Assembly (NCBI GenBank): GCA_965153285.1
Contig: OZ229115.1
DNA from: Podarcis tiliguerta
Taxonomy: Eukaryota
Reading direction: 5' to 3' (one strand)
DNA: 64,000 nt
Part shown: piece after piece, positions 2,598 to 61,490 of the stretch
Layout: every line of letters starts with the position of its first letter
How positions within the stretch are numbered: the stretch's first letter is position 1
Translations under genes and position numbers: made by a program
The notes under the pieces: generated by a model
The model's input: only the letters and a program-made list of their open reading frames with translations
Told to the model about the DNA's origin: nothing
Databases searched by the model: none

Positions 2598-2690
2598 CTA
2601 CACCTGAGTAATGATTTCTCCATTTTCTGGCACGTAGACCTGCACAGGGGCTCCCTCAGGAGACCGTTTCAGGATATGGACACGGGGAAC
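2598..2690 (-). CDS. INAVA: INAVA coding exon 9 (last): VPRVHILKRSPEGAPVQVYVPENGEIITQV*
   Basis: Acceptor TTCCAG|GTT, phase 0. Matches the human C-terminus (VLRRSPDGAPVQVFVPEKGEIISQV). Confidence 0.95.
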   Translation of the reverse strand, partial: VPRVHILKRSPEGAPVQVYVPENGEIITQV

Positions 2691-4353
2691 CTGGAAGGTT
2701 AAAAAAAGGAGCCTCTTAATGGAACTGCTGCACCAGCACATCTCCCCAGTAGCAGCAACCCCACCACCACCAAATACAAATTCCTTCATCAAACCTAAAA
2801 GCATTTGTTGCAGCTGATGGTCACTTCCTATCTTGATTGCCTCAGGAAAATGTGGCCCATGATGTTTCTCCATGCCTATAAAATAAATTCCTCCCCCACC
2901 ATTAAGCGCAGTGTAAAAATAAAGTTTCCAGGGCAATCTTTCCTATTCTTTCCATTCAGTGCCATTAAATTAAGTGTCTTTAAAATGATGTGATGTTTTC
3001 CAGCCATGATTACCATTCATGCTTTCACCTTTGGGGGTTAGACTAGAGGACCCACCACACAGAGAGTCATGGAAAGGTGGTGCTCTGGTACTTTTCAACA
3101 GGGCTGCTGCACCTGTGGCCCTTCCAAAGAGGCTGGGACTCCCAGCAGCCCCAGCTGGCATGGCCAATGATCAGAGATGATGGGCCTTGTAGTCCAGCAC
3201 CACAAGCTCCCCATCCCTGCTGTAAAACAGCTAGGTGTCTAGAGCATCCTAAAGAATACACGGAAAAAGCTGAGCCCCGGCAGGCAAATAAACAGAGCTT
3301 GCCATAGCTTTATGCATTAAGAAGGACTAAAAGAGGCTCTTAAAAGTAGCAATATTGGCATAAGATGGTCTAACTGACTACAAAGCAGCTTCTTATATTT
3401 ATATTGCCATGCATGGGTGCAAAACCAAAACAGCTTCTAACTATTAATCAACATGAAGCTTCCACGGTTTCTACCCATTATTCACAGGCATGTCCAGAGG
3501 AGAACCCACTTACAAACGTGAAGTGTGAGCTCACTCTCAGAGGGGTGGCTATTTTAGTCTGTTGCAGCAAACTGGCATCTTAAAGACTTAATAAAGTAAT
3601 GAGCTTTTGTGGACCGGAGTCTATTTCAACCGATGCTTATACAAGGAGATTGTCCTCATGGCTCCTCCTTTTAGGTGAGTAAAGCTCCCCTATCTCTTGA
3701 ATGGGGACCACAGATTTAAATGAACTGGCCAAAGGAGGTTTTGAAACAGCGTAACTGGCCTCTAGGACTCACAAATAAAACTACCTGAAAGTGCACATGT
3801 GCCCCAACTGATGGGCATAGAATTGCCAGGTATTTATTTGATGCTGCATTGTTGGGTGGTTTCCTTGTGCTGAAGATGGATTAGACAAACACGTAACGTG
3901 CAAGCTATGGTCGCTGTCTTCTCTTGCTCATGCGAATGCTTCCTAGCACAGCAAAGAGTTGTCTGATTAAAATTTCACAGCTCTGTTTCCAGGTGAGGGG
4001 AGGCATGCATTGAAGAGGGTGGGAGGAATCCAAGGGCAAGCTCTTGCTCGCATGGTTGTGGGCTTCTGCCCTGTGCTGCAGGCGAGGGAGATGCCCAAGG
4101 AAGAGAGAACTGTGCTTCATTGTGCAACAGTTTTGCACATCGAAAGAACATAATTCTCCAAGCGGAACCACCCCCCCCCCAAACCGGGATTCATATCTTT
4201 CAGAATTTCTCTCACTGACTATGTTTCTCAAGGAACAGCGTGCAGAGTTGCCAGAAGGCAATGCTGTTGTCACCAACCATCAGAACAAAGGAGCAGCAAC
4301 ATAACCTTTTCCTATCTAACAAACTGCCCAACAAGCATACAGTAAAAAATACA

Positions 4354-4425
4354 GTAAAGGACCCGTGGACAGTTAAGTCCAGTCAAAGGCGACTATGGGA
4401 TGTGGCGCTCATCTCACTTTCAGAA
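4354..4425 (-). mobile_element. Sauria SINE 3' fragment
   Basis: GTAAAGGACCCGTGGACAGTTAAGTCCAGTC...GCGCTCATCTC, the reverse of the SINE 3' end. Confidence 0.6.
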
Positions 4426-5886
4426 CCAAGAACTAGAACAAGCTTAAGGACTACTGGACTTTACTGAGGTTCAAGGAAGTGGATACTACTTAATGTGTTG
4501 TATTCAGTGCTAGTCCTACTTAGATTTGACCTACCGCCATTAAGGAGCCTGTTAGTCTTGTCCAGTGACTTCAATGGGTCTACTCCTGAGTAGGATTAAC
4601 ACTGGATACAACTCTATTATTTTTAAAATTACCTGGGCAGAGAACTTGGAAATTTCCCCTCTACCACAAACATGAGTCAACTCTTACAGGCTCTGAGCCA
4701 GAAGACTCCTCTTCATGAGTAATTTGGAACACTCAAACAGCTCTCAGTGCAAACAAACATCTGAAACTGGGGTGGTGATTTGAAGCAGCTGAATGGCCCT
4801 TGGGAAAAGGCTTAGGCACCCCTCCCACGATCTACCGTTCTCAAGTCCCCATCCCAATCCATCCCAAAGCACTATCTTATTACTTTAAATTGAATTTGTG
4901 GTAGTGTTGCATGCATTTGTGCTTAACTTCTAATTAGTCGTAGGGCTGTGCCAAATGTCTGTTCCAAAGCATAGTGCTTTCAGTGGACCTGTAAATGCAC
5001 TTTTAAAATAATAATAATAATAAAGCTTTTCACAACATTGCTAGAAAATAGCACAAAGGAAGCAGCCAAACCCACTAGCTGTGTATGTTTCTCCAGTGCT
5101 GCCCCCCCCCAAGCCCATAAGCTATAAAAAGGCCCAGCAGTGCAGTGCGCCTTTGTGAGGCGACAGCAGTCTGTGGAATCTGCTTTTCCCTGAGCCTGAG
5201 GATGGCTCTCCAACTCACGGAGAGCAGGCCATGTTTCTTGGTTGCCATGAGCGAATACTGCTTCCACCAACACACATTCTGGTGGGGTGCCAAAACAGCA
5301 GCTTTTGCCCATGAATATGTAAGACAGTCGACATTTTGGTAGCCATAGCAGGCCGCAAAAAACTGAAAAGAAACATAACAACCTGAGCAGTGAAGTGAAT
5401 CGCACCTGAGAGGCACCTGCCTTCATCTTACAGGAGGCAGCACTATAGCATGCTTCTACAGATCTGCTAGTACTCATGAAAGCCTTCCTCTATTTTTCCT
5501 ATTCACATGGGCGCACACACAGAGCTTTCAATTCCTTGTGTGGCCAGATACTACCAGCCTGTAAAGTAGGAATGGAAACCTGTAGTCTAGCAACATCTGG
5601 AGAGCTACAAGATCCATCATGCTGACTATTAGCCCTGCTGGCTGGGGCTGATGGGAGTTGGAGTCCCAGTAACATCTGGGGGCTGCAGATTCCCGATTCC
5701 CCACAGCCGTTAAGAGGCTTCTGCACTAATTTGTTAATAGAAAATGAGCTTATCTATGAACATGGCACATTAGCATGTTCTCCTTAATCAGGTCTAGCTG
5801 GAATATTGAGGAAACTCTTGCCGAAACAGTAAATAAGAGGCTGGCTCTTCTCTCCCCAAGACACCTTCCTGCCCAAAGATCCTCAC

Positions 5887-6604
5887 CTGAATTTGCTGCC
5901 CCATGGAACAGGAGGGGCGCAACTCTCGGCCGGGCCCGCTGCGCATGCGAAAGGCCCCTTGTCTGTCCAGGGAATGTGGCCGCGCATTACGCAGCCGAGT
6001 CCGTTCGTGCCATGATTTTAGCTCTTCTGTCACGGCTGACTTGGAGAGGACTCGGGGCCCCATCGGGGAGCAGTCCTTCAGAGATGGGGTGCGCACCACC
6101 CTGCTGTGAGAAACAACCGACCGGTGGAACCGCACAGGCACCGCCTCTTCCTTGTAGGCAAAATGGGTGGAGCTTACAGACAGGAAGGGCGGCCGGCTGT
6201 GGCCGAGCTCACGCCCAGCCGGCAGGTGGTTGTCATATTCTACGGCAGAGAAGTAGCCCAGCGGTGAGAGCAGCTTCTGAGGACACTGGCAGTGGTATTC
6301 GGGTCCATTCCCCTTGGAGGTCTGGTTCTGAAACGGCTGCAGGGGCTCCTCCACGGGGACCGAGGAGCTTGGCTTCAGGAAGGAGATGTCGGGGCTGCTG
6401 CTACCGGCAGAGGTGGTATAGGAGATGCTGGAGACATCCGAATTGCTGTCTTCTGAGGCGGAGTGGTAGGTGGGCTTGGCGGCTGGGTTGGCCTTGGGCA
6501 CAGAGAAGCAGTACTCGGGGACGGTGACAGTGTAGTAGGTGGGACGCCGCCTTGGCAATGCGCTTCTTCCACGGGACTCGAAGCCTTCCCGGGATGAACA
6601 CACC
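5887..6604 (-). CDS. INAVA: INAVA coding exon 8 (718 nt)
   Basis: Acceptor CTCCAG|G, donor CAG|GTGAGG. Encodes RGRSALPRRRPTYYTVTVP, SEDSNSDVSSIS, RTPSLKD and LSKSAVTEELKSWHERTRLRNARPHSLDRQGAFR, all INAVA-conserved blocks. Confidence 0.95.
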
Positions 6605-6801
6605 CTGGAGGCCAGAAGGAGAGAGTTAAGACCATCTATCAGGAGCTCGCAATGGCCACCTTAACACCTTTGAAGCACTTCCCCCTAAGGATTATGGGAG
6701 GTGTAGTTCATTCAGGGCACTGAGAGTCGTTAGGAGGCCCCCTTCCCCTCACACACCTACAGTTCTTAGAGTTCCCTACAAGGAAGGATTGATTGTTAAA
6801 T

Positions 6802-6901
6802 CCAGGGCTTTTTTCACCCGGAACTCAGTGATGGCACCTCTCAGGTGGGCGCCATTGCCATTACAAGAGAACAAGGGAGCAGTTTAGAAAAAACAGCACT
6901 G
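6802..6901. mobile_element. Small non-autonomous DNA element (CAG[G/T]GCT TIR)
   Basis: CAGGGCTTTTTT...AAAAAACAGCACTG inverted ends; related to the element at 52945-53110. Confidence 0.5.
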
Positions 6902-7434
6902 GTTAAACCACTCTAGGAATTGCCAGGAGAACTCCAAGAACATGATGTCAGATGTGGGGAGGAGAAAGGAGAAATGCTTACACTGTCACAGCAATCTCCT
7001 TAGAGCTACTTTGCATTATTATATGCTTCCTTTGTATAGTTTATTCTGCACGCAATTGGAAAAAGGAGGGTCATGAAACAATGCAGGGCACTGAAGCCCC
7101 AACCCTTAACGGCTGGAAATCCTGTTTGCCCTTCCTCTAGCTTCCAACATATTCCCAAACATTGCTCATTTGCCTTCAAGCCTATTTTCATAGCTAGGAG
7201 GACTAGAAAACCCTTTTTGCAAAATAATAATAACAACAAAAATAACCGAGAGCTGAGATTCCCAAAACGCTGAATTTTAAATTTTGCATTTGTGAGGCCT
7301 GATAATAGAAGCACAACGTACATATAGCCTCACCCCAAGGTATCTGACATGTTCAAACTTCAAAGAGTGATTAGGTAACAACAGGCAGGGCCACCTGCTT
7401 GAGTACGTGAATTGACCCTAAGTCCATAGAGTAC

Positions 7435-7608
7435 CTCATGAGTTGAGGTTGTCCTCTCCTTCCCAGGAACTCAGGTGTCTGTGGGGCACTGGAACCAGCC
7501 TGTTTCCTTACTTCCAGCTTCCTGGGAGGAACAAAGTGGCATGGCGATGCCTCAGCAGTTGTCTGAGGGGTACGGCTGGGTGACGGTTGAGACAGCAGGC
7601 CTGGACTG
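7435..7608 (-). CDS. INAVA: INAVA coding exon 7 (174 nt)
   Basis: Acceptor TTACAG|C, donor GAG|GTACTC, phase 2-2. SSAPQTPEFLGRRGQPQLMR resembles human TSAPATPEIQGRRGQSQSLR. Confidence 0.9.
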
Positions 7609-8138
7609 CTGTAACAGAACACAATAAGAACATCAAGTGAGAGACTGCCTGCAGTCCTGTCATCTTTCTTTGTGTGCAAAGGAGTGAGAGGCTCTGGTCA
7701 AGGGTCAAATCCCCCTCCCTTTCATCTCCCCTAAGAGTGAAAAACAGGAGTAAAAAGAGAAAGCAAGACTCAAGTGGGTCCACAAAACCCGCTGTTCTGG
7801 CTTAGTTAATTGGACTACTAAGTTTCTAGGTCAGTGGTTCTCAGAGGACACTTTCCCCAATGCAATTGTGAAGCCTATATTGGCTGGGATTAACATGCAA
7901 TTTCATGTTATTAAATTAAGCAACTTTAAGGTGGATTTGTGGAAATAAAAAAATGGAAACATTGCACAATCACAATAAAGCAGCAAAACAATACAATGCT
8001 TATTGTTCTTAAAATGAAGTAACGGACAGACTCTACAGTAGCTTCCATGTTACATGCATGCAAACAAACATTAACAGAGGCTGATCTGAAGACCACGCAA
8101 GCATATCCAAAGAAGAGCGAGAGAAGAAAGGTCTTGAC

Positions 8139-8373
8139 CTTGGCACACTGCTGGGCTCAGTGGATTTCTTTGGCTTTTCATAAGGCTTGTCCAGACTGGT
8201 CTCTTTCCATGGGCTGTTTTGGATGGGAGAGCACTCCACGTCAGTGGCTTGGTAGTGGGTTTGCCCTTCTAGTAGCGCAGAACGCAGAGGCTGAGCCGAA
8301 GAACCAGGCGGGGGTTGGAGGCGAGCTGAAGCTGTGAGCATTGGCGGAAGATGGGCGCTCAGCACCTGGGATT
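8139..8373 (-). CDS. INAVA: INAVA coding exon 6 (235 nt)
   Basis: Acceptor CTTTTCCTTTTCTGAAG|AA, donor AAG|GTCAAG. Contains PIQNSPWKETSLDKPYEKPKKS. Confidence 0.9.
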
Positions 8374-8479
8374 CTTCAGAAAAGGAAAAGGAAAGAACTG
8401 CAGCATTCCAACGCTAAAACCTGGATGGTAGCATTATCTACTGAGTTACATTCCAGGGGCTGGAACTGGTGTACAAATC

Positions 8480-8930
8480 CCCATGCATCTTGGGACCAGG
8501 GTACCTAAAATATCATCTCACCCCTTACAAACCCACTCAATCACTGCACTCTGCAGGTGAGGGCCTCCTGCAAATACCATATTGTAATGGGGTCAACCCT
8601 GCACAATACAGGAATCGGGCCTTTAGTGTGCTGGAATCTGCCCCTTGGAATTCCCTCTGTTGTGTTTTCAGCACCTGTGAAGACTTTCCAGTTCCAACAA
8701 GCCATTTAAATGGAGGACTTCATCCCAAACTGCATCTATACTGGAACTACTTTTAACAGTTTTCATATGTGGAATTGTTTGTAATTGTTTTATGTACGGA
8801 ACTGTTTTTAACTGTTTTACACTTTTCTTGTTTTATAGTTGTGACTATTTTGCTTGTTTCAAAACTGTTTATTTTATTGCTGTAGTCTGGCACCTTATAG
8901 TAAAAGGCAAGTAAGATATCTAATAATAGA
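8480..8930 (+). mobile_element. L2 LINE 3' fragment
   Basis: Degenerate LGPGYLK..L.PY.P...L.S...LL..P...RAFSV..P..WNSL reading, followed by a T-rich 3' UTR. Confidence 0.65.
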
Positions 8931-9344
8931 TTTTTTTAAAAGCATGAATAACCACTGGTTTAGGCTATATCATTCAAAATATACCAAATCACTTATCACA
9001 GACTCTTATCACTCTAGATTAAACCAAAACAGGATGTGGAATTTAGCAGATATCCACAGTCATAAAAGACCCACTTATCAGTCACCTTTGTACTTGAATC
9101 TTTTGAAAATTTAGATGAGATCCATTCACTAACTCTCTTCTCTGTCTTGCAAGTCTAGCTGGCTGCTGTGGCCTAATTCTTAGTCATGTGGTATGAATCA
9201 GGGCCAAACCTCGACAAGATGTCAGAGAGCAGTGATCAGATACAGTTTGTCTCTTCAAAGGCTTAACTACCACTTTACGCTAGGTGAAGGAAAGTCACAA
9301 GCACCCTGTAATGACAGTGCAGAGATCACAGTTATCTAGTTTAC

Positions 9345-9398
9345 CTTCTTCTACCGCAACAGCATCCAACAAGGAGTTCTCATCAGAGGCACTGAACC
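9345..9398 (-). CDS. INAVA: INAVA coding exon 5 (54 nt): GFSASDENSLLDAVAVEE
   Basis: Acceptor TTCCCCAG|GG, donor AAG|GTAAAC, phase 1-1. Resembles human ELSASDDSSLSDGLLLEE. Too short for the ORF track. Confidence 0.88.
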
Positions 9399-10201
9399 CT
9401 GGGGAAGACACAAGAATTGGCACAGACAAGGAGGAACAATGATCAGATTTTCAAGCAGTTATTAGAACCCTCTGGTGCTCCCTAGAAATATGTGCTCATA
9501 ACTCCCACTGAGCTTCTAGAAAGGGGAAATAAAAGCTCCCTCTCCCTCTCTCTCACACACACTTCTTAGTTCTGAGCTAATTCCCAGAGCCTCAAACCAC
9601 ATCATTCAAAGCCCCGCATTCACACACACTTAAGCTCCTCAAAGAGATATTCCCTGATGCAGTGAATTAATAGTAATGGGGGGGGGGGATTTAGAGTCAT
9701 ATTTTGGGAATCTTCTTCCCAAACAGGCAAAACACTTAATTATGAATTAATATTTTAAAAATTCTTTCACTCTTCAAATGCAGTATGGATGCTATAAACT
9801 GGCCGTAATCCAATGCAGAGTTAAGTGCCCTCAAGCTGATTGATTTTCGGAGGCCTTAAGCATGCTTAATTCTGTGTTGAAATGCAGCTGCCAGCCACTG
9901 AGTTTCTTTTACTGCCTGCCCCCAGGCGATTCTGTGGCCAACGGGAGGGTCAGATGGCCTCATTCAGAAGCTGAGACCTCTTGCCTAATCTGCCTAGACA
10001 TCTCGTCCATCAGCAGGGCAGCTGTGGGATTCCTCAGGCAAGCGGCAGAGGAGGGAAGCAGCAATTTCTCACGTGCAAACATGCATCTTCCTGCAGTCTT
10101 GCGCAAAAAACACTGGACAGAGAATATAAGCAACCGCCCACCCACACCAGTGGACCTATTATCAATATAGATGCTTCCTTAATGGAATACCTGGGCAAGA
10201 A

Positions 10202-10596
10202 CCATCAGAATGTAAGACGAGTCTGCTGGATCGGGCCAGTGGCCAATGGCCCACCTTGTCCAGCATCCTGTTCTCACGGTGGCCAACCAGACACACAAGG
10301 GAAGCCTGCAAGCCAGAACATGAGCAGCCTGCCCACCTGTGGGTCCCAGGAACTGGTATTCAGAGTCATGGTGCCTCTGACAGCAGAGGCAGAAAATAGC
10401 AACCATGGCTAGATAGCCTTGCCCTCCACGAATTTGTCCAATCCTCTAACAAAGCCATCCAAACTGGGGGCCACTACTGCCTCCTGTTGGAGCAAATTCC
10501 ATAGTTTAACGATGCACTGTGTGAAGTGAACTGCATGGTCCTTCATCTTCCAATATTCAGCTTCATTGAGTGCCTGCAGTTTCTAGTGTTATGAGA
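10202..10596 (-). mobile_element. CR1 LINE 3' fragment
   Basis: CTGCTGGATC..GGCCAGTGGCC..TCCAGCATCCTGTTCTCAC.GTGGCCAACCAG, the squamate CR1 end in reverse. A short copy also lies at ~20743-20840. Confidence 0.65.
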
Positions 10597-11296
10597 GTGG
10601 ATCTATAGGTCGGGGGGGGGGGTAGAGTGAGTGTTACAATGCCATCCCCTGCATGCTTATTTCCCACTGCACCCTATGCAGCAAACTTCCCCCAAGTCCC
10701 TATAAAACCAAGAGATTTGGATCCAGAGCTATCTAACTTTCTACGCCTTCCTAAGGGTTAATCTGGCACTTCAGGTCTTTGCGTCATTCGCTGCAGGTTT
10801 CTACATGCTTCCTCCTCCAGCTGGCTCTCCCTGTTCTTGATTGAGCTCACTTTGGCAACCGCTGACAGAAAACTGCAGTTTGCGTAGATTACATGGGCAG
10901 GAAGAAGCCATAAAAGGTCAGTTTCCTCCCTTGAACTGGGATGAATTCCAACTAAACCACGCCTGTCAGAAGCCTGTCTGACCTACTTCTGATTTCTAGG
11001 GACAGATATTTAATCCCAGACTCTGTCTTCATTTCCTGACAACTCAAGGTTTTTTGGTTGGGTTTTTTTTTTTAATTAATTAATAAACCCTCTTCCTTAT
11101 ACTTACTCATTTCAATTTATCACCATTCAATTTTGTCCTCCTGTGCAGTGGCCACAAAGAACAATTTTACTATACCTCCCTTTGTATATTTTTATGGTCA
11201 TTATCACCACACGCAAAGGACCCATTTCTCAGACCTGCCTCTCTAGGCCCTTGTGTTGATCTCAAGGCCACTGTAGGATGCTGAGCTCCTGCTCAC

Positions 11297-11525
11297 CTTG
11301 TAAGGCTGGCGCACTGGCCCTCAGCTGTGACGAATGCCTGGCTGCCTGGCGGCACTCTGTGACAGACTGCTCCAGATCCTTCAGCTTCTTTTCCTCCTTC
11401 AGCACAGCACTTTTGCGGCGCTTCCGAACCTGCTTGGTGAGATTCTCTTCCCGGGACAGACATCGCGCTGCTTCAGCAATTTGCAGCTGCAGAGCTAGGT
11501 CTCTCTCCAACATGCTCAGAGGATC
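11297..11525 (-). CDS. INAVA: INAVA coding exon 4 (229 nt), CUPID coiled coil
   Basis: Acceptor CCGCAG|GAT, donor AAG|GTGAGC. Encodes DPLSMLERDLALQLQIAEAARCLSREENLTKQVRKRRK. Confidence 0.95.
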
Positions 11526-11656
11526 CTGCGGAGGAGAACAGACACGGATTCCAAACGATGAAACTCTCTGGAAAGGATGGAGCGACCCAGCGTTTCAAAA
11601 GGGGGCACACGAGGACTAAAGTGGCAGAATCCAAAATCACAGCAATGGAGAAGCCT

Positions 11657-11970
11657 GGGGAAAGGCTGTACAGCTCAGTGGAAGAGCTTGCAAGAGATCC
11701 TAGGTTCAATTTCCAGCATCTTCAGCTAGGGCTGGGAAAGTCTGCTGCCTGCCAGTTTGTAATAGACCAGGGTTTCCCAAACATGGGTCTCTAGCTGTTT
11801 TTGGACTACAACTCCCATCATCCCTAGCTAGCAGGCACCAGTGGTCAGGGATAATGGGAACTGTAGTCCAAAAACAGCTAGAGACCCAATTTTGAGAAAC
11901 ACGGGTGTAGACAATACTGAACTAGATGGACCAATGGTCCGATTGGGCATTAGGCAGCTTCTTGTATTTC
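11657..11970 (+). mobile_element. tRNA-derived SINE interrupted by a hairpin MITE (11768-11903)
   Basis: A/B boxes (AGCTCAGTGG, GGTTCAATTTCC). The SINE body resumes at GTGTAGACAATACTGAACTAGATGGACC after a near-perfect palindromic insert. Confidence 0.7.
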
Positions 11971-13387
11971 TAGGGCACTCTTGGCAGCTGGATGCTTCCA
12001 AGACATTACTACCATTACCCCATCCCCTGCTTCAACTCATAAATCATAGGCTCCTTCCTTACGTCCTTTGGTAGATCAAATCAGATACTGAGTATGACTT
12101 TCATGCATCTCCCAGTTACATTCCATGTGCGTTCTAGAGTGGTCGGATGAAAAGATAGCAGGGTTCTTGCATTTTTAATAGCTGCATAGAAGTGGGAAGC
12201 TCAGTAAATGTAGCTTGCATGACACCAGCTGCAATTCAACTATTAAAAGCACACGAGCCCAAATGTCTTCTTTTGCATCTGAGCGCCCCAGTGCATTCAA
12301 CTAGTGTAGAAAGGCATCACAGGCTGAGCTAAATCTTCCTGTCTCACTCACAGTCAGGATAATTAAATAACAATAGACGGGTGATTTCCCACTCCTTCAA
12401 TGCCTGCTTATGAGCAGAATGGAGATTCTAATCCAGTTTAGGGATTTGTGAATCCTGAGCCAGGGATGGTAATTATTCAGGATTTAAGAAATCCGCAGGG
12501 GTGTGTTCTTCTGTATGAGCCATAGGACTGATGTCCTGGGCCCAGTTCCCAGCTGTCTGCCCTGCCCAGGTTTCTGAAGGAGGAAAACTATCCACAGACT
12601 AAGTGGAAATGTTCTATGTTTCTGGGGCAAGAGCTTCCTAATGGCTGGGGAAAGTGAGCAAAAAGGCAGGTCGGTAGGCGACATTCGGCAAGGTGAAGGT
12701 GAAATGAAAAGCTTTCCAAAGTTACGCTAAGTGTGTGTGAGAGAGAAAGAAGCTATGGTAAGCAAGAACACTTGTACAAAACACACACAATTCCACTTGG
12801 AGCCCACACCCTGTGCCACCCACTATGGGCACACAGCAAAAAAATAATAAGCAGCACCACACCTAGGCCGCCTCCTACTAAGATTATTATTAAAACAGAC
12901 GACAGGGGAGAGAAAGAGAGAGTGAGACTGCATAGCTGAAGAGTCAACAGATCCCACACCTTTGATGGAAATGAGGCCTAACTCCCTCTGTGTGTTTGGA
13001 GCCTGAAGCGTCTCTGTCCCTTTGGGAGTTTCTAACAGGATGCTGAACCCGAACAACCTCATCATTCCCAAAAGTCCTCTTTTAGCTGACAGCTGCTTCC
13101 TGGCACTGTATCGTCTTCAGTGGGAGTTCACAGCATAATCCTAATGCAAGCCATCCCTTCTCAACAAAGAATCGTGGTTGGTTTTTTCCTGGATTAGTTT
13201 AACTTGGTTTCAAAAATGGTGAAAACAAACAAACAAACAAAATCCCCCACTTCTATAAAGGCTGCCTGCCTGTTAAGAACTGCAGGATTATGTAGACAAT
13301 TGGTGAAAGGGATTACAGATGTACATGCCCTCACCAGGGGGAAATTCACTTTTCACCCTCTTGCACTTGATACAGAAAACTCTTTTA

Positions 13388-13661
13388 CAGTGGTGCCTCG
13401 CAAGACGAAATTAATTCGTTCTGTGAGTTTTTTCGTCTTGTGAATTTTTCGTCTTGAGAAGCACGGTTTCCCATAGGAAATGCATTGACGGTTTCCTATA
13501 GGAATGCATTGACGGTTTTAAGAAAAAGGCGCAAGACCTTTTCGTCTTGCGAAGCAAGCCCATAGGGAAATTCGTCTTGCGAAGCAACTCAAAAAACAAA
13601 AAACTCTTTCGTCTTGCGAGTTTTTCGTCTTGCGAGGCATTCGTCTTGCGAGGTACCACTG
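13388..13661. mobile_element. Tc1/mariner-type MITE
   Basis: TA|CAGTGGTGCCTCGCAAGACGAA...TTCGTCTTGCGAGGTACCACTG|TA, with internal TTCGTCTTGCGA repeats. Confidence 0.85.
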
Positions 13662-14030
13662 TACTGTGCAAATTGAAATTGTGTGGCTTTTTGTTATCTC
13701 TGGCTGTAAAGGCTCTCAGAAGAAACCAGTTTGATTCTCAGTGAGGTGGTTTGCTGGCAATTGCCAGTATAGAGGGGAAGTTGCTTTTGAATTACAGCTT
13801 CACCTGCCAGAAAAAAAATGGTCTGGTGACTCTAGTATCAGCAGCACAACATTTTTCTTCCCATCTCCTTCTGGACACTTCTGTGCTCGCAGCAAGGGTT
13901 GCCATGACAGCTGATAGTGACTCCCACCACAAGCAGATTTCCAAGCAGCGCCCTGGATAATTGGAAATGTTGTTTCTGCCCATATTCCCTAAACTCAGGA
14001 GGAGAAGCACCTCAGCAATATTCTCCTTAC

Positions 14031-14153
14031 CACTCCTCTGGAGAGAAAGGCCTTCTCATCCAATCTGAAAGCAGCACCAATTCGACGTCGGACCTTTGGG
14101 GCCACTTCTCCTGGTTTCAGAGGATACTCTGAAGGAAGCAATCCTGTCAGTTC
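14031..14153 (-). CDS. INAVA: INAVA coding exon 3 (123 nt): [41 protein letters not shown]
   Basis: Acceptor TTGACAG|GAA, donor GTG|GTAAGG. Carries the CUPID (DUF3338) signature ELTGxLPxEYPLxPGExxPxVRRRIG. Confidence 0.95.
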
Positions 14154-15512
14154 CTGTCAAGAAAACAGCAAAGGGAAGGTTCAGTTCCTAGAACTGTGTA
14201 TTTTCAGTCACACCCTGGGTCTTCAGAGCATCTTACAAAATACCTGTCTATCAATCTCCCTCTCTAAATAGGATCTCATGCCATTATTTTGTTAGCTTGG
14301 CAGCTTCTTCTTATTTCCTCAGTGTCCCATGACATCAAGTTAACCTCAGGCACAGAAGACAGCCATAGATAGATGCCACACAAAATAACCAGGCCTGAGT
14401 TCATTCCAAACCAAAGCTGCTTTTTTTTAAGTGCAGCCAGATCCAAAATGGACAGTTACTGGATGGGGGGAAATGGGCGGTTCAAAAATTCAAATCATGC
14501 AAAAGTTATAATATGTTAGGTGATGAAAAAAGTGACTGATAAAAATGTGAAAAGTAATTTAAGTCCAGACTCCCGCAGACCAGGCCCTGTTCAACCATAC
14601 CAATTTCTCTTCCCTTTGCCAAAGACATGCCCCACACTCCACTGCTAGCTGGGAGTTCAAGATGCCTCTTGGGTGAAGTTTGTCTATAACACTCTTCTGC
14701 ATTAGTGGGCCAGATTCCCAGTTCTGGGGATTTTCTCCCACCCTTTGTAGGCTTCCAAATGTCATGAAATGTGTCTCTAAGCAAGAAAGTATGTATGTGC
14801 ACGCACACACACACACACACACAGAGAGAAGTAATAGAAAGTTCCGGAAAACATTCCCTAAAACATTCAAGAGAGCAAGGTACAGTTCTGGTGTCCTGCA
14901 AAACCAACCAACCAAACAAAACCCCATTTGTTTTGTACTCTTTTAACTGAGGGTAATAGCAATAGGCTAGAAAGGGTAGTTTATTGTTTTAATTATTTTC
15001 TCCTTGACGCATTAAAATACCACAACTAATAGTGGTTGGTTTGATGGGTTGGTTTTGATCCAGGGGGCCCAGAAAATTTTCTCTGGGAGAAACTTCCACG
15101 TTCAATTTTTAACTATTTGCGGTATCTCAGGTCAGGAGGGAAAAGTTACCTCATCAGATTCACTTGCAGCATATGGCTAGGCTCGCTTAATTAAGCTTGT
15201 TAATTATGGGTTGCTTTAGAAGTTAACGTCTTGAATAATGCAGGAGCAACTCTCCAATGGGGAAAGTGTTCTTGATACAGTCTTTGCCCTTTCTTCGCCC
15301 CCAGATATTTTCTCCTAGTACTACCTTTGGGTTACATTGCCCCTCCCTCATGTCCGAATGTCTTTGATCTCTGAGGAAAGCTTCTCCAGTTTCTGTGAGC
15401 GTCCGAGTCCAAAGAACTACAGCCCTTAAAGATGGACCCTCTTTACTTTAGCAGGACGCCTCCTGCAGCCCAAACGGTGTGTGGCAACCCTGCAGACTTC
15501 CTGGCCCCTTAC

Positions 15513-15637
15513 CGCTTCGCGCAAACACAGCCTGCGCAGCTCCTGCACACAGGCCTCTAGTCGCTCCTCCAGCGCCTTCTGCTGCTTCCTCATAGCTTGC
15601 GTCAGATCCTTCATTGGAGACATGGGGCTGTCTAGTC
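15513..15637 (-). CDS. INAVA: INAVA coding exon 2 (125 nt)
   Basis: Acceptor CTTCCAG|GA, donor GCG|GTAAGG. Encodes DSPMSPMKDLTQAMRKQQKALEERLEACVQELRRLCLREA. Confidence 0.95.
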
Positions 15638-17042
15638 CTGGAAGGGTTGAGACAGACACAGACTGATGACCTGTCAGGTGCTACGGGCGGGAAGGGAAGC
15701 AGCAATATTTAATGACCCATACAGAGATGCCCTTGGGCAACTTTCTGGAGCCAGCTGCAGGTCTTGCGAATGCATCTTAAAGACCGGTGTCATTAGCAGT
15801 TATCATAAAAATGGCATGGGACATCAAAGGAGAGGCTGTCCTGACAGCTCATCAGGTGGGGTATGGAATGTGGACAACAGCCAGGACTGATTAGCTCTTA
15901 CTTCCAAGCTGCAGGCACCTCAAGGTCATCGCAGATCAGATAAGGAGGAGACTCCATGGTGATAGTCCTGATCATTAAGTTTATTACAGAACTAAGCAAA
16001 CAGATTTGCTGCTCTGCTCACAGACCGGAACAAAAAGGAGTCTTTGATATTTGTAAGCCTTAAGACAGCAGTTCCAGAAGATTTTAGCTCATGCTGCTTC
16101 TTCCACAGATCAGAGGCACTCGGCCAGATTGTTGACTCCTCACAAGCCACTTAAAGGTCAGATCTAAACCCACACTAGCTCATTCATACAGGACAATAGG
16201 AGACCATTCCCTCATAAGTGTAGGGGTGGGTGCAGGGTTGTGTGAAACCATACAACACTTTCTGAGTGGTGATGGTAGAAGAAACGTCTCCAGTTTAGAA
16301 CTAACTTGCTAAACTGGGAGCAGTTTCTATTCAGATGTGCCCTGAGATATCAAATAAGCACATGGGGTTGCAAAAGGAATCAGACTAGGAAGTGGATGCT
16401 GAACTCTCCTATTATTTTGTTTGTCTGGATCCCCTGCTGCAACTCCTGCTTAGAGCTGCCATGCACTATAGATCCCAAAGTAGTGCTGTTCACTGGCATG
16501 AGCCCACCCTATGAAAAAAGATTACCATTCCTTGTCTGTACACACAGATAGTTCAAAACCATTAAGAGATGCATCATATGCCATAGCTTCCTACATGAGA
16601 GGGAATCTTGTTGTATATACAACATTGCATCTTAAGTGTGGCCTGATTATTTACTTCTACCACAAGTATGTTGTTCAGCACTTTTACGCTAATTGTTCAT
16701 GGAAGCAGTTTCTAAAGTTTATATATAACTAAGTACAATGATCAGGTATTACTCATGCAGAAAGTATGCCACATACCGGGCAGCCGAAGGATTTTAGTGA
16801 AATAGTCTCCTACGGAGTCATCAGTAGGGATTATGTCCACTTTGCAACACCCCGGATAGTATTCAACTAAGTTTTACTCAGAGTAATCCCAATGAAATCA
16901 ATAAGCATGACTAAGTTAGGTCCATTAATTTCAATGGGTCTACCCTGAGTAAGTTGAACACTACCCTCTGCCTGTATTTCAATGCTACTAATATTTTTTG
17001 AAAAGAAATCTTTTATGATGAGGAACCAGTTATATTACAAGA

Positions 17043-17183
17043 TAGAAACATAGAATTGCAGAGTTGGAAAGGGACCAAAAGGATCATCTAGTCCAACCCC
17101 CTGCAATGGAGGAATATTTTACCCAATGTGGGGCTCAAACCCACAACCCTGAGATTAAGAGTCTCGTGCTCTACCAGCTGAGA
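17043..17183 (-). mobile_element. tRNA(Lys)-like head + CR1-tail SINE
   Basis: Reverse strand reads CTCAGCTGGTAGAGCACGAGACTCTTAATCTCAGGGTTGTGGGTTTGAGCCCCAC...TTCCAACTCT..ATTCTAT. Other copies at 39688-39815 (-) and 43425-43502 (+). Confidence 0.7.
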
Positions 17184-17773
17184 AGCATGGTACTTTAAAC
17201 TGGTTGGGGGAGGGGGAACTGTGGTCTTTCGGATATTGCTGGACTATAGTTCTCATAATCCCTTAACATTGGCCAAGTTGGCTGCACTTAACGGGAGTCC
17301 AACAACATTTGACATGTCACACTCCTGTTTATAAAGCACTAGGATTCCACCATGTAACACCAGTCCCCAAAATCCAAGACCACCCTTGATAGCCCTTGCT
17401 CCTGTCTCCGTGTGTCCACGCAAGATCACACTCTTTTCTGGTATCCTGGGCATCCCCAGCTGAACACTTTGGGCTACATCATAGCCCGGCTAGGACGAAG
17501 CCAGACTGAAATAGAATCAACAAGGAGCCAGCCATGACTAATGAGTCAGAGGGTTCTTTTCACAGCTGTGCTTTTATCTTCGTGCAGCTGTGGTGATGCC
17601 TTCTAGTCTAATCTTCTATGGTAAGTTTACAGGCTTGGGGCAGAAAGAAGACCCCCCACCCACCCCAAACAGTGCAGTCATTCTTGCTTAAACCTGTTGA
17701 CACAGGAACAAATCCAGGAGACGATGCTGGCACTACATGATAATGAGCAGGAATTTCCCCATCCGTCACTCAC

Positions 17774-17828
17774 CTGACTGTACTATGATCCCACTGTCTG
17801 TGTCACTGGTCTCATCCTTACTCTTCAT
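17774..17828 (-). CDS. INAVA: INAVA coding exon 1 (start): MKSKDETSDTDSGIIVQS(G)
   Basis: GCC-ATG context, acceptor CCTCCCTCCGTAG| 9 nt upstream (exon starts at 17837), donor CAG|GTGAGT. Resembles human MESKDEVSDTDSGIILQSG. Confidence 0.93.
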
Positions 17829-20800
17829 GGCCAAGCTCTACGGAGGGAGGCAGTAGGACCACACCTGGAAAGTGCCGTGATGTCTCCTGCTAACACAATA
17901 AGGCAAAGACTGAGGTGTGCTACACACACATTATTTATATAATTATGCCACATCTTCACTCCAGTTCACATACGACCCCTCTATAGAGCTTCCACACGGT
18001 CAGAGCCTCTATGTTGCTAAAGGACCTACCAGTTCCAAAGTTCAGGGCCGGCTCTACGCTTAGGTATAGTGGGGCAACTGCCTCAAGCAGCTGAACTTGG
18101 CCGTCATGAAAGGGCAGCAAATTATTAGCTATTTAATTTCTGGCCGTTGTATTTTGACTGCCAGAAAGTGGGGAGAGAAGCACTTGTGGCTGTTCCCCTC
18201 ACCCCACAATCCTTGAATACTGTGCACCATGACTGTGGGAGGGGCTTTCATTGCTACGTTTTGGGGAAGAAAATGCCTTGGCCCAGTGCTGCAGAAATTC
18301 CTGTAATGATTTTCTTGGTTCTGACTACTACAAGGAGGAAATTCAGGTCCTGGAAGAAGGGAGCAGGCAAGTGGCAATAACAGGGCTGAGAGAAGGCAAG
18401 ATATGGGCTCTCTATCAATTGCTGCAGCAGCTGTCATAAGTGACACATGAAATAGTCACCTAGAAGCATCTGACCATGTGGAGCCTCACTTTAGGGCTCC
18501 TGTGTAAACTGGGCCTTTGGCAAACCCAAACCCAGGATTCCATGCTGCTTATCTATTCAGCAAAGATAAAATATAAAAGCTGGTCTGGGCCACTACAGCC
18601 TGGCTGTTGTGCAATCCAACGCACTATGTGAGACCAAAATTGGCCCACACAGCAGAACAGCAGATGTCTTGGCACTTTGTTTGGGGCACCCAAACAAAGG
18701 CAGGGAAAGCTCCTGTTCAGAAACCCCCATAAACGTCTGCAAATCAACATGCAGGATTATCAATCTTTGTCTGTAACCCTACTGCACAGGTAATATTTAT
18801 CCGATGCATACAAAGTTGGACATTCATATTATAACCCAATTCAAGTGTAGCAGCACACAGAGCATGAACTGTAACAGACACTTGATAATAATTTAGAATT
18901 GATATAGCGTTTTCCTAGTTTTCAAAACACTTTACTTACATTTTTGTTGTTGCACATCACACAGCAACCCTATAAAGTAGGTCAGTGATATTATTCTGTA
19001 TGGCAGATGGGAGGGAGGCGAAGGGCTTGGCCTCAGAGAAAGAGACTTGCCTAAGGCTGCAGAGTGAATTCATGGCAGAGTGAGAAGCAAACTGGGGACA
19101 TCCTGGTTTGTAGCTTGGCCTCTAGGCGCCACCAGCTCTTTATATCTACACCGGAAAGCAGAATTTCTGGTTTGGGGAAAGTTGCGGGGAGGCAGGGGCA
19201 GATTTATTCTTTGGCCTCAGGTCCATGTCTTAGCAGCACTACATAGTCCTTGAAGCAAATATTCATGCTGTGTTCTGTCACAGTTAACTGCAATTTATGA
19301 GGGCTTCCAGAAGGAAACCTGATTGGCAATTCTCAGCTCCCCATGTGCTTGACTAGTTCACCTGCTACTCTTCTCTTTCCTGCTAGGCTGGGAGGGGAAA
19401 CGTTGTGGGGAGCCTCCTCTCAATCCTGGGGGGTGTGCTAAGCAAACAGCTCCTCAGCTCCGGCAATGAATGAAAGGCGCTTCCCCATGTCAAGAATACT
19501 CCTCCATCCTCCAACCCAAGCTCCAGTAACAGAAGACCTGCTCAAGGTCCCATTGCAGATGTTGGGACATGCCATTCAGCAGGGATAGTCTCTTACTTTC
19601 CCTACAGTTGGGGGTGGCTCCAAGCCTACCTCCTGCAGCAAACGCTCAGTGTTTACACGCCACTCCCCTGCCCCAACCTGGGTGAGTCAATTTGAGAGTC
19701 ACACTGAGTTTCTGTCTGGAGCTTATCCTGGCCCTACCAGTCTCCTGGTAAACAAAACGTAAAGGGGGCTGGCCTGGGCGGACAAGGTTCACAGCACTGA
19801 GCAGAGATCTGCTATAGGGCAACACTGCTTCAGACCTTTGTAGATTATTCCTCGCTCCAATCAGGAGATTGTGTGGATGCGAATTTGTTCCTCTGCCTGC
19901 CATCCATAAAACTGAGTTAAGCGACACAGTGGCAATGGCAGAGTGTACTCCCCTCAGAACTACAAAATGCCACAACTCTGCAGCTGATCCCAATGCAGCT
20001 ACGGGAAGGTGGCCAGAAGCAAGAGAGGACAAGGCTGCTGCACTTTCAGTAATTATGTCAAGGAGGAGAGTCCATCAGAAGGTTGTTGTGGACATCCTCT
20101 ATCTGCAAAAATTCCCTCTTCTACCAAAGCTGCCTAGGGAGGCATGCTGAATGTCAGGGTTCCTGTTACTGGGGTTGCTTACAACTGACAAAGGAGGTAG
20201 TGGGGGACGGAGGTTTTGTGGGTGCCAGGGAAAGTCCTAAAGGGCACAATTGTGCCCGCAGGCACCTTACTGGGGATCCCTGTTACTGTGAATATGCCTG
20301 CATAAGCTTCCCATGAACACTAATAAAGTATTGTTCATTTCAGAGCTGTCTATTCACAGCACTCGCAATTCAACAAGGTTGGGTTTTCACTTTGACTTTC
20401 ATAGCAAAACCTATTATATTTCAAAGATCCACAGTAAGACTAGTGCCAAGATGGTCAAGTTTTTTAGTCTAGCTTTTAAAAAAAGGTGGGGAGGAGAGAA
20501 ACAATGCTACATATCTCTTTTCAAAATGAAATATTGTCTAAAGTGTGCATGCTCACATGGGGTTTCTCAAGGCTCACATGTGCTAAATCTCCACATCTGA
20601 TCAATGCGGATAAAAAAATGGGCAGCAATGGGAAATTGCAGGGCCAGGTCAGATGAACAGCAGACAAGGAACACACCTTTGCTGCCTCCATCCATTCTGC
20701 AGATATCACTTACTGCACTTTGCATTTAGTGATGAGATAAGCACATAAGCATGTATTAAGAGCCCTGCTGGATCAGACCATCTAGTCCAGCATCCTTGCA

Positions 20801-33609: not shown

Positions 33610-33769
33610 CTGACCTGCAACACAGGCAAAGTTTTTTCCAAGATGTAGTGATGAGAAATGCTCAAAAGCAGCTTGCTGGGTGAAGTGGATTGATTATGCT
33701 AGATTCCTGGCAGGTGGGATGCTCTTGGCTTACTGGGAAGAAGCAAGGTGAGGAGGTCAGTAAAGTGCT

Positions 33770-34030: not shown

Positions 34031-35281
34031 AAGCACATCAATGCCACCAATTTGGCATTCCAGCAGGTGCATTTCTACCAATCCACCCTTTGTGCAGGTA
34101 AATAATAGAGACCCTCCTGCCAAGAACTTAGCATGGCAGCTCCACCTCACCTGGCTAGCCATTTCTAGAAATGCTTCACTCTTTTAAATGTTTGCTGGGA
34201 ATGCAGGTGTTAATGGCAAAGGAGTTTCTGCAGGAAAAAGGTGGCAAGCATACACAAGAAAGGGCCCCAGAAGTAAACTGTTTGTCCAATATGTACTGAT
34301 AAGCTGATCTGCCCCTGGCAATTTTCACTTCCCAAGTGCTTAAAGGAACATCAAGAAACAATGTCTGGGATCTAACCACCTCCTGATGAAACCAAGTCAA
34401 GGTCTTCTGAAAATGACTTAGATAACCTCCAACTCTGCTTCTTCTCTTTGATTCTTCTCAAAGAATAAATAGGCAAGGTTGTGCAACAAACAAGCTAGAG
34501 AACTTCTATTTATAAGGAATGGGTTTATATGTGTATTTCCAGTCCAGGACATTTTTGCATGTTGCAATGATCTGAAATTTCTTTTTAACTTCCTCTCAAA
34601 AGAAGATACATAAATACATACTTTGATGCATATTTAAATGTGTATTTTCTCTCAAAATACAATTTAAATGTATAGATACATGTTTATTTCAAAATATGTA
34701 TCTAAATGCATTTTTAAAAATGTTTAAACCAACCTTCCTCAACGTGTAGACTCCAAATATCTTGGACACTGGAGGATCCACTTTATATTACCAGAAACTA
34801 GGTAAAAACTCATGTTAAAAAAAGGTATTTAAAGGCTGATGTCATTTTTTATGTTGTGATGCTGCTAATTATGTTTTTTTATGTGCTGTATAATTATTTT
34901 TAATGTTTCTGCTTATAATGTACAGTATGATGTTTCATATTGCTTTTCTTTTGTTGCAAACTGTCCTGTGGTCATTTTTGGTGAATGTCAGTCCAGAAAT
35001 CTATTTAATAAATAAATGAAACACTCATCAGCACAAATATTCATTCCAATATTTGGTGGATAGCTAAGCTCCAATCTGCATAAAAGGCCAAGAGATACAG
35101 ATCAGGTAGAAAAATCTGCAGACTGAATTCCTCAAGCACTTTCTGTTTCTACTACTGTATTTGCATTATTTGAATAATTATACTTGTGCCAGTAGAGGTC
35201 GCTAGTATGCAGCATCTTCTGTTCCTTCCGCCCTGTCCCCAGCAAGAAAGAAATGTGGGGTTAGATTATGCTTATTACTCC

Positions 35282-41000: not shown

Positions 41001-41371
41001 TCACCCACCTCTGATCTAAATGAAGAGGCAATTTCAGACAAGCTGCTCACCTAAACATGTATCTTACAAGTAGTAATTTGAAATCACGGTGCCTATTCCC
41101 GCCCCCTCCCCAACCATAAACCTGAAAACATTTCCCGCAGAGCTATGGCATTCATTTGTTCAGGTCCTAAATCTCTGGAAGTCAAAGAAACTCCGCAGAA
41201 GCTTTAGTCTGCTCTTTCCATTAAAGGCAGCGCCAATCAGAAAATTTCAGGAAACTACAACTGGGAAGAAAACGACAATTGGGCAGTCGCAGATTACTTC
41301 CAGGAACCAGCTAATTCAGCAGTGCTCATTGCTTATTTCTCTTTAGCTCCAAGGAATGCACGCTTACTCAC

Positions 41372-41700
41372 CTGGTGTGAGCTGCTAGAAGTTCTAAATT
41401 TTACAGTTACGAAAAGTTCTGCTCTGTTTCCACTTACCTTTGTGTATGTGTGTGTGATTTGCTCAGTTTATTTGAGTTTCCCCGTTACCCCCCGGGAGCG
41501 CGAGCTTCTCCGCTGCCATGCTTCTGGTGCGCTTGCTTAAATTCTCCACCCCCCCTTGCGGTATTTCATTTAACTTCGGCATCGGCGGCATCCCAAATGT
41601 TAAAAAGATCTGAAGACATCTGTCCCTGGGGCATACCACTCCCTGCAAGGAAAGAGGGGTGAATGCCTTGCTTGCCCTTCTCCTTTTCCAACCGGGATGT
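41372..41700 (-). other. INAVA: Probable INAVA non-coding first exon with two alternative donors; contains a uORF
   Basis: Consensus donors AAG|GTAAGT (exon end 41438) and CAG|GTGAGT (exon end 41372) at the edge of a CpG island; MPKLNEIP match to the human long isoform. The 5' end is approximate. Confidence 0.6.
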
Positions 41701-42110
41701 GAAATCCCCGAGAGCGTCTCTGTGAAATGCGGCGTGAAAAAACAACAACACGCCAGGCCCGACCGAGTTTTTGTTTGCTAGGTTGGTGGTTTTCATTAAT
41801 TTCGCCCTTTGAGGGAACAGCCTCCCTTCAGGGACCCCCCTTTTCCACAGCCAGGATTGCCTCGGCCCTGGCGGTAGGAAAGAGTCATTTGCTGAATCAA
41901 AGCGCTTCTTCCAAGCCACACAATGACCCCCCTGTGGTTGCTTTTCTGCGGGGAGACCCGGGGCGAACGTGCGAAAGAATGGCCGCGGGGAGAGAGCGGC
42001 GCTTCTCCCTCAGGGCAGCCCAGAAGGAAAGTGTGCGCGGCAGCTGGCTATTAATGTCGCATTAGTGATGGATTAGCAGCACTCTCGGCCCAACGCACAA
42101 TGGCAAACTA
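41460..42110. promoter_or_regulatory. CpG-rich promoter region of INAVA
   Basis: High CpG density in non-repeat sequence directly upstream of the strong donors; ATCAAAG TCF/LEF-type motif at 41896-41902. Confidence 0.65.
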
Positions 42111-50700: not shown

Positions 50701-52105
50701 ACAGCAATGGGTTTTTTGCAGTTAGGGAAGCAACAGGGAAACCCACTGAGAAATGTCAGATGAATGAATGATTAATGGGAAGATGTATAACTGCCACACA
50801 AATACAACCTCCCAGCAAACAAATCAGAACAAATGCCAAATAAAGACCAGATGTAATCTAAACTCCACATAAGTTTTGTGTAAGCAAATCAAGGGGAATA
50901 CTCAGTAGACAAGTCCTCTGGAGGACCTTCTGTCATTTGATGCTGCTGGTATATCGCTAACATGAATGAATGTTGCCCTTTTAGAACTGAGAAACTGCAG
51001 AATTGTAAACCTGATGAAGTAATCCAAATACAGGATAACTGCCAAATAATTTTTTTTTGTGGTCCGTGTTGATTTCTTGGTTTCTTTCTGCCTGTTCCAA
51101 GTACAATTCTAGACCTATTCACAGGCCAGCTCTACCATTGGGCAGGGTGAGATGGTTCAGGTGCTGCAGGGCAAAGAGCAGTGGTAGGACGACGTTGGAG
51201 GACAGAGTGGCATGTGCCACATGGCCCATCCTATTTTTTCCCTAAAGTAATCCTAATTTCATCTAAATTAGCCTGCTACTCTCAGGTGTGGTGGGAGATG
51301 CTGCCCTATCACCAGTGTTGGCATAAGATTCAGCTGGCAGTCTGGTTACCTTCTGTGCACAGAAGTGGGTGCCATCCTGTCTTTTGCTTCAGGCAGGAAA
51401 AGGTGTTGTGCCAGCCCTGCCCAGAGCTGTCTTTCCCATTGGTCTTAGTGGTTCGTTGTGCCAGGGCGCTGGCCTCTCAGGGGCGCCCTAGTGAGTGGAG
51501 GAGCTGTGCGGCTATGCCGGCAGCCTTCCCTTTCCCTGCATGCTCGCCAGCTGCGCCCCACCAACTATATGGCTGGCGGGTGCGCAGCTTCCCTCCCAAG
51601 CCTCTGCATCTGCTAAAGATGGCCCTGCTCCCGGTCATTGTCCTCCTCCTGCTTCCTGGCGAAAGGCAGCGCACAGCCTTCCCAGGCTGCCTTCTCGGAC
51701 ACCCAGGTGCTGGAGAGTTTGTCCGCCAGCACCTTTTCCTGCTTGATCATCGCCACCACGCTGGGGATCAGGGTGGTGGGGGAGGCAGAGGACATTTTCT
51801 ATCGCGCCCTCCCTTGTTTTGGAGTTGCTTGGGGGGGGCACCAGATGGATCTTTGCACCACGGTGCCAGATATGCTTAAGACGGCCCTGGCTTCACCTCT
51901 GTCACATCACCATTACATCCTGCATTGGGGCCCAACTTCTGTGTCAGGACCTTTGCTCATGTGGGATTCCTGCATGATTTACTAACATGAGTATAGAAGC
52001 CCCCTGCTGCAGAAGTCCAACCCCTAATGTGTGGAGGGCAGCAAACCTGATAACACAGAGGGGGCAGAGAGTGGCTGTCTAAGGGCAAGCAAGTAGTTAC
52101 AAATA

Positions 52106-60990: not shown

Positions 60991-61490
60991 TCTGATTAAA
61001 ACTGATTTGGTATGTTTTTGAAACAGTAAAAACACAGCAATATCTGCTTACCAGAAGGGAAGAGGTGCTTGGAGGACAGGGTCTGCGTAATATCAAAACT
61101 GTGTGTGTGTTTGGGCCTGGAAGGAGAACTGGCTATCTTTACTTCTGAAGATGAACGATGGAGAAGGAACTGAGAGAGGAGATGCTGGTCACACCTGAGG
61201 GGAAGGCTGCCACAAGGGAGAAGGGTTCTATACAATGTAGATACTACATCCCCTAATAATCCTGGGAACTGTAGTTTAAGGGTGCTGGGAATTGTATCTC
61301 TGTGGGGGTAAAATGGATTCTTTGTGATTAGATGCTGTTTTTGCTAGGAAGACAAATAAGCCTTGATGAGCTGGGTGTGTGTTAGGGATTAATAATATGG
61401 ACTGATCACAGTAGGATGAAGGAGGTTATAAGACAAACTTGATGTTGTGATACATCCAGAAAAACTAAATGGGGAACGGATGGTAAAGAC

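What the first reader, a model, noticed from the sequence alone, without database searches (positions are those of the whole stretch)
41463..41591. Conserved MPKLNEIP reading frame is a terminated uORF here but the N-terminus of long INAVA in human
Seen: the minus strand reads ATG CCG CCG ATG CCG AAG TTA AAT GAA ATA CCG (MPPMPKLNEIP...), a 42-aa ORF ending in TGA at 41463. That stop lies 25 nt before the first strong donor (41438) and ~24 kb upstream of the main ATG. The frame that would join exon 17837 in phase contains a TAA and no ATG. Known (from memory): the 663-aa human INAVA isoform begins MLQMPKLNEIPPG. Inference: an 8-codon identity between lizard and human without fusion to the main CDS suggests either a conserved peptide uORF/microprotein controlling INAVA translation, or a conserved DNA element that is only incidentally translated in human. 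In both cases the human N-terminal extension would be derived.
Basis: partly seen in the sequence, partly recalled or inferred. Interest (0 to 1): 0.7.

Follow-up and report, generated by a model that had tools for sequence, protein, structure and literature searches.

The report
Conserved leader DNA became INAVA's N-terminus
An 82-base stretch at the front of a lizard's INAVA gene (a bowel-disease risk gene in people) matches the start of the long placental-mammal protein but is frameshifted and stops early in the lizard, so it is likely an old control sequence that placental mammals alone appear to have recruited as the protein's front end.

Summary
The 42-codon ORF is real and lies in a spliced, non-coding first exon of lacertid INAVA, but it is not a conserved microprotein. 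In RNA-type contigs of a close relative, 3 of 3 covering the site have one G fewer, which cuts the ORF to 17 codons. The lizard–mammal match is an 82-bp block (41634–41553). Its upstream half matches the placental codons MPQGTDVLGSLTFG at 40 of 41 bases, but only across frameshifting indels, so the constraint is likely on nucleotides. One contig splices donor 41438 to an unlisted 118-nt exon closed in all three frames. The fused N-terminus is not human-specific: 51 of 115 placental INAVA sequences carry it (all four superorders), against 0 of 195 non-placental ones. A wombat model reads the same block from another AUG in a shifted frame. Best reading: an old promoter/first-exon element whose AUG was likely fused to the coding sequence in the placental stem, giving the long isoform reported to form IL-1β condensates. 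Not shown: start site, translation, binding factors, synonymous-site pattern. The scan's index held no earlier INAVA note.

The parts
41553..41634 (-). 82-bp block conserved with placental mammals; holds 5 ATGs (41634, 41619, 41591, 41582, 41569) in all three frames
   Evidence: 76 bases compatible, 4 mismatched, 3 gap positions against the back-translated elephant 27-mer; scores; ATG list
41463..41591 (-). 42-codon upstream ORF of the finding; only its first 13 codons lie in the conserved block
41549..41555 (-). G7 run, one base shorter in the relative's contigs; ORF then ends at TAA 41539 after 17 codons
   Evidence: table 4 (X1, X2, X5)
41438..41863 (-). Distal first exon / promoter region of INAVA; 5' end unknown; CpG o/e 0.67 against 0.28 for the window; used donor at 41438 (second perfect-consensus donor at 41372, use not seen); (CA)n tract before the donor varies in length
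   Evidence: contigs cover 41441-41863 and none covers 41150-41421
33615..33732 (-). 118-nt non-coding exon spliced to donor 41438; starts with TAA, stops in all three frames, no ATG; polypyrimidine tract + CAG before, CAG|GTCAGT after (3' end from consensus only)
   Evidence: loose end of contig X9 matches 13 of 14 bases at 33732-33719; context; frames
34380..34436 (-). Part of another 5' exon, homologous to the N-terminal exon of two Anolis carolinensis models
   Evidence: tblastn 79% over 19 aa, E 1e-6 within the window
17774..17889 (-). First coding exon: main ATG 17828 (MKSKD...), acceptors at 17837 (-9) and predicted NAGNAG 17889/17886; in-frame TAG lies between them
   Evidence: Anolis and Pogona model pairs differing by one Q
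2598..17828 (-). INAVA coding span (several exons)

Best explanation
This is an 82-bp block in the spliced first exon of lizard INAVA that is conserved with mammals regardless of reading frame, so it likely works as a promoter-proximal DNA control element, and its AUG was likely fused to the coding sequence only in the ancestor of placental mammals. In lacertids every AUG in it opens a short frame that stops inside exon 1 (shown from sequence). The exon is spliced to a further non-coding exon (shown, one contig), so protein starts at MKSKD (inferred; it agrees with the lacertid gene models examined that hold this exon). The uORFs would dampen translation of messages that start above them (inferred). 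In placentals the same exon joins an acceptor about 32 codons above MESKD. The extension is therefore inferred to be a patchwork: 13-27 residues dictated by the element, about 40 from GC-rich leader, and about 30 read through the pyrimidine tract of the older -9 acceptor.
For: (1) Frame-independent conservation: upstream 14 placental codons match 40 of 41 bases with a 1-nt and a 2-nt indel; the in-frame 13 codons match 36 of 39; the next 14 codons do not match. (2) ORF length not kept: 3 of 3 contigs covering 41549 (two studies) lack a G, giving 17 codons; the tract before the donor also differs in length (table 7). (3) Splice to a closed non-coding exon. (4) Motif in 51 of 115 placental and 0 of 195 non-placental sequences, 153 of which hold the first coding exon; 0 of 22 marsupial. 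(5) Wombat X1 starts MKSLRGG, compatible with EIPPGRE in a shifted frame (7-residue run, 5 of 300 shuffles), then resembles the placental extension in that shifted frame. (6) Among 26 placentals the block is 96-99% identical, above the CUPID region (87%), while the rest of the extension is 62-68%. (7) Same place in the exon: 154 nt from ATG to donor here, about 159 in bonobo; single copy; CpG-rich.
Against: No DNA outside lacertids was obtained (searches found nothing), so synonymous against flat conservation was not measured; back-translation hides third positions. Read by hand, the wombat peptide implies two or three third-position differences from the lizard in the I-P-x codons, which would be silent in the MPKLNEIP frame: a weak sign of peptide constraint. 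The G-run shift falls after the conserved codons, so it does not touch an 8-11-residue core. It is a homopolymer at depth 2.5-4.2, so an error in either sequence is possible; X1 and X2 are one sample and X2 has the site only 23 bases from its end. The splice rests on 14 visible bases of one contig. Absence in non-placentals is absence from gene models. No binding factor or start site was shown.
Confidence: 0.6

Rival explanations
1. The block is kept as an RNA-level AUG cluster: five start codons in three frames that throttle translation, or trigger decay, of messages from the distal promoter, whatever the peptides are.
For: 5 ATGs in 82 nt: reached by 1.6% of window positions and 21 of 2000 dinucleotide shuffles. 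Three appear as Met in placentals, a fourth as the wombat start. Contigs X1 and X2 extend about 200 nt above the block.
Against: Bases between the ATGs are conserved too, which an AUG cluster alone does not need. The block was chosen after looking. The contig shown to be spliced begins at 41543, below all five ATGs; X1 and X2 are not shown spliced. It is compatible with the best explanation as a second layer.
Confidence: 0.2
2. A short conserved peptide (MPKLNEIP core) is the selected unit, acting as a nascent-chain or free signal, with a free tail.
For: 8 identical codons lizard to placentals; the implied wombat differences would be silent in this frame (by hand); the frameshift in the relative spares the core.
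Against: Equal conservation in the frameshifted upstream half; 3 of 13 codons differ by amino acid; stop position not kept; no homologue; INAVA absent from the human Ribo-seq ORF table searched (controls found). Stalling peptides are usually conserved next to their stop (recalled).
Confidence: 0.12
3. The fused long isoform is ancestral to amniotes and was lost in squamates and other lines; the lizard ORF is its stump.
For: Same exon position and length; with the shorter G run the frame falls in phase with the -9 acceptor; wombat frame arithmetic also leaves it in phase.
Against: 0 of 195 non-placental sequences carry it, which would need several losses; the placental extension reads through a pyrimidine tract; phase has a 1-in-3 chance and changes with the variable tract before the donor.
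Confidence: 0.06

Closest known systems
Human INAVA isoform 1 (NP_060735.3) and INAVA-S (NP_001136041.1); PMC6226287, PMC8276315 (passages read)
   Same: Same gene; the 99-aa segment they describe equals the 14+85 residues seen in placental models, and its first 27 codons are this block.
   Different: In those passages only the long form makes IL-1beta puncta and boosts TRAF6/NF-kB signalling (overexpressed constructs); its origin is not discussed there. The lizard has no fused form.
Translated 5'UTR regions / clade-restricted N-terminal extensions (PMC11317171; abstract and passages read)
   Same: GC-rich upstream sequence read in frame, with frameshifts or stops in outgroups.
   Different: Most of theirs use non-AUG starts and are not conserved beyond simians; this one uses AUG, spans all placentals and sits on DNA at least as old as amniotes. 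INAVA is not in that paper's main text.
Conserved peptide uORFs such as PLAG1 c8riboseqorf50 (row seen in PMC10032668 supplement)
   Same: AUG-initiated ORF in a non-coding first exon with cross-species peptide identity.
   Different: Here length and stop are not kept, and conservation extends outside the frame.

Membership tests
Conserved peptide uORF / microprotein | AUG-to-stop ORF in the leader of the same spliced mRNA | tested here: inconclusive
   Exon is spliced (X9) and X1 spans AUGs to the donor, but the spliced contig starts below the AUGs
Conserved peptide uORF / microprotein | Length and stop position conserved | tested here: not met
   42 against 17 codons in a close relative
Conserved peptide uORF / microprotein | Conservation confined to the reading frame | tested here: not met
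   40 of 41 bases match upstream across frameshifts
Conserved peptide uORF / microprotein | Excess of synonymous change | tested here: inconclusive
   No outgroup DNA; weak positive hint from wombat
Conserved peptide uORF / microprotein | Ribosome occupancy or peptide detection | not testable with these tools
   No Ribo-seq; INAVA absent from the human table searched
Conserved non-coding promoter-proximal element | Frame-independent nucleotide conservation between distant lineages | tested here: met
   (through back-translation)
Conserved non-coding promoter-proximal element | Single copy at the orthologous position, promoter-like composition | tested here: met
   One match in the genome; 154 against about 159 nt to the donor; CpG o/e 0.67-0.68 against 0.28
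Conserved non-coding promoter-proximal element | Start site nearby, factor binding, reporter activity | not testable with these tools
   Contigs cannot show starts; no motif library or chromatin data
Clade-restricted N-terminal extension from 5' leader | Upstream AUG fused in frame in one clade, absent in outgroups | tested here: met
   51 of 115 placental against 0 of 195 other sequences, from gene models
Clade-restricted N-terminal extension from 5' leader | Endogenous protein with the extension | not tested
   Passages read describe tagged constructs only
Structured cis-regulatory RNA | Folding stronger than shuffles | tested here: not met
   z = -1.63, 0.71, -1.19, -0.75 for four stretches; covariation not testable

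The most novel reading that the evidence does not exclude
The signalling-competent long INAVA is a placental invention stitched from an amniote promoter element, GC-rich leader and a splice-acceptor tract. Its near-invariant first 27 residues are held by DNA, not protein; the condensate activity lies in the variable R/G/W-rich part; and the same five-AUG block is an ancient translational brake that one AUG escaped by fusion.
Probability: 0.35. Interest if true: 0.65.

Novelty: new variant of a known kind. Interest (0 to 1): 0.42.

Why it matters
PMC8276315 states that how INAVA's N-terminal region enables condensate assembly is unknown. This finding predicts that the most conserved-looking residues are the wrong place to look, that coding edits there would also disturb transcription, and that reptiles, birds and marsupials have only the short, junctional form. 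It is also a clear case of peptide identity over deep time arising from a non-coding constraint.

Tried and rejected
Protein searches with the ORF: none scored among longer proteins (31 candidates), none among similar lengths, none among 1.84 billion representatives with a 60-aa frame; these are weak blanks for so short a match, since known placental matches were missed too. Two metagenome pattern scans for other vertebrates' DNA found nothing. Run search: no holder on record as RNA; 4 of 16 runs were laid, on one 1-kb stretch; no DNA run and no junction to the coding exon were laid. A hairpin enclosing both AUGs folds at -9.9 kcal/mol, but 12 of 200 shuffles do as well: rejected. A frameshift in the shrew leader was suspected from its model but was not significant (33 and 99 of 300 shuffles). 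The bacterial promoter scan was uninformative. Resemblances to E-box and AP-2 sites are recalled and untested. Literature: searches INAVA+isoform, C1orf106+upstream open reading (0), C1orf106/INAVA/promoter/transcription start, INAVA+lizard, INAVA+uORF, a six-term uORF/extension search and C1orf106/first exon/alternative promoter listed no paper on this element; Yan 2017 and Mohanan 2018 were not held and may bear on isoform use.

Full report
Observation. The minus strand from 41591 reads a 42-codon ORF ending in TGA at 41463, 25 nt before the donor at 41438. The downstream gene is INAVA; exon 6603-5887 is 97% identical to Podarcis muralis, so the window is a lacertid. The 231-bp stretch has one match in the genome.

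Who has the fused N-terminus. One search found 310 proteins and listed the best 120; 26 of these carry the PKL[ND]E motif, all placental by their source names. Three cluster look-ups on 30 of the 120 added members (at most 15 listed per cluster). After dropping 9 GPR25 rows, 310 INAVA sequences were tallied: 51 of 115 placental and 0 of 195 non-placental carry the motif; 153 of the 195 hold the first coding exon; 0 of 22 marsupial. These are redundant gene models, not species, and I classed unnamed proteins by their cluster. Afrotheria, Xenarthra, Euarchontoglires and Laurasiatheria are all represented. The extension from MLQ is 85 residues in 20 of 26. No monotreme was among the named sequences, and human itself was not retrieved; bonobo and curated mouse start MLQMPKLNEIPPG.

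The conserved unit is larger than the ORF and ignores frame. Ten of the 26 models begin 14 residues earlier, MPQGTDVLGSLTFG. The lizard DNA spells this piecewise in three frames. Back-translated, it scores 44 of 57 ending at 41592, against 24 for the next best place on both strands of the window; the MLQ 13-mer scores 46.4 of 58.4; the following 14 residues find nothing here. Base by base, the upstream half has 40 compatible bases, 1 mismatch and indels of 1 and 2 nt; the in-frame half has 36 compatible bases and 3 mismatches, each changing a residue (degenerate positions count as compatible). Among placentals these 27 residues are 96-99% identical, more than the CUPID region (87%), while the rest of the extension is 62-68%. 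The wombat X1 model starts at the AUG inside the N-E codons, in a shifted frame (7-residue compatible run, 5 of 300 shuffles), and reads the first coding exon in the same shift (21 residues, 0 of 300). So marsupials have the block, but none of 22 models fuses the MPKL frame.

Transcripts. One search listed 16 runs, none on record as RNA; four guessed RNA runs of a close relative (three studies) were laid on 41150-42150. Each gave one contig, together covering 41441-41863, none on the intron side. X1, X2 and X5, all that reach 41549, lack one base of the G7 run; by frame arithmetic the ORF is then 17 codons. Depth is low and the site is a homopolymer, so an error is possible, but either way 42 codons is not a stable figure. 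The loose end of X9 continues through a longer CA/CG tract and AAAG into 14 visible bases that match 33732-33719 at 13 positions, directly after a pyrimidine tract and CAG. This 118-nt exon has stops in all three frames and no ATG. X1 and X5 cross GGG|GTGGAG unspliced. The start site is not resolved: X9 begins below all ATGs of the block and X5 at the second one, while X1 and X2 (one sample, not shown spliced) run about 200 nt above it.

How the placental form is built (inferred from model junctions). Isoforms with different upstream parts converge either at SW[GE]NS, about 32 codons above MESKD, or at K[SF][TI]M, three codons above it, the position of the lizard 17837 acceptor. The long form uses the upper site and reads through the lower acceptor's pyrimidine tract. 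ATG-to-donor distance is 154 nt here and about 159 in bonobo.

Mechanism. Shown: frame-independent conservation, closed frames in the lizard, splicing to a non-coding exon, placental-only fusion in gene models. Inferred: function as a promoter-proximal element (CpG o/e 0.67-0.68 against 0.28 for the window, and 0.45 and 0.52 for two other GC-rich stretches), dampening by uORFs, and origin of the fusion in the placental stem. Against: no outgroup DNA; the wombat peptide hints at silent third-position changes; 5 ATGs in 82 nt (21 of 2000 shuffles) leaves an RNA-level brake open. RNA structure is unsupported.

Literature seen. PMC6226287 and PMC8276315: passages; long isoform alone forms puncta and enhances IL-1beta/TRAF6 signalling in overexpression; mechanism of the N-terminus stated as unknown. 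PMC11429573: passages; SMAD binding placed in intron 1, not here. PMC11317171: abstract and passages. PMC10032668: six supplementary files searched, no INAVA or C1orf106; PLAG1 and CAMSAP2 rows found as controls. Other papers: search listings only. Seven searches listed nothing on this element; subscription papers are not covered. The scan's own index gave no INAVA note.

Verdict. Real feature, wrong unit: not a 42-aa microprotein but an old leader element that likely seeded a placental-specific isoform. New variant of a known kind; interest 0.42.

Noticed in passing
window 61395-61721 (-): Frame with DUF1151 (PF06625, E 1.5e-13), the FAM107 family by recall, upstream of GPR25 and INAVA. FAM107A and FAM107B are recalled to lie on the FRMD4B and FRMD4A chromosome arms; this may be a third paralogue without a human counterpart at this locus.
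   Followed up: partly
window 56034-57158 (-): Intronless 7TM receptor ORF (PF00001), taken as GPR25 from recalled human synteny.
   Followed up: partly
window 34380-34436 (-): Second 5' exon conserved with Anolis, with a TAA in the frame that is open in the Anolis model; suggests several INAVA promoters in squamates.
   Followed up: partly
window 41463-41519 (-): ATG 41519 has the best Kozak context in exon 1 (A at -3, G at +4) and opens an 18-codon frame below the G run, unaffected by the shift.
   Followed up: no
P0180, P0169 (wombat), P0266 (armadillo): Models read the first coding exon in a shifted frame and rejoin the main frame at ELTHA through an alternative acceptor; seen in a marsupial and a xenarthran.
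   Followed up: no
window 51151-51876 (+): GC-rich 242-codon stop-free frame with no Pfam match; possibly a decayed mobile element.
   Followed up: no
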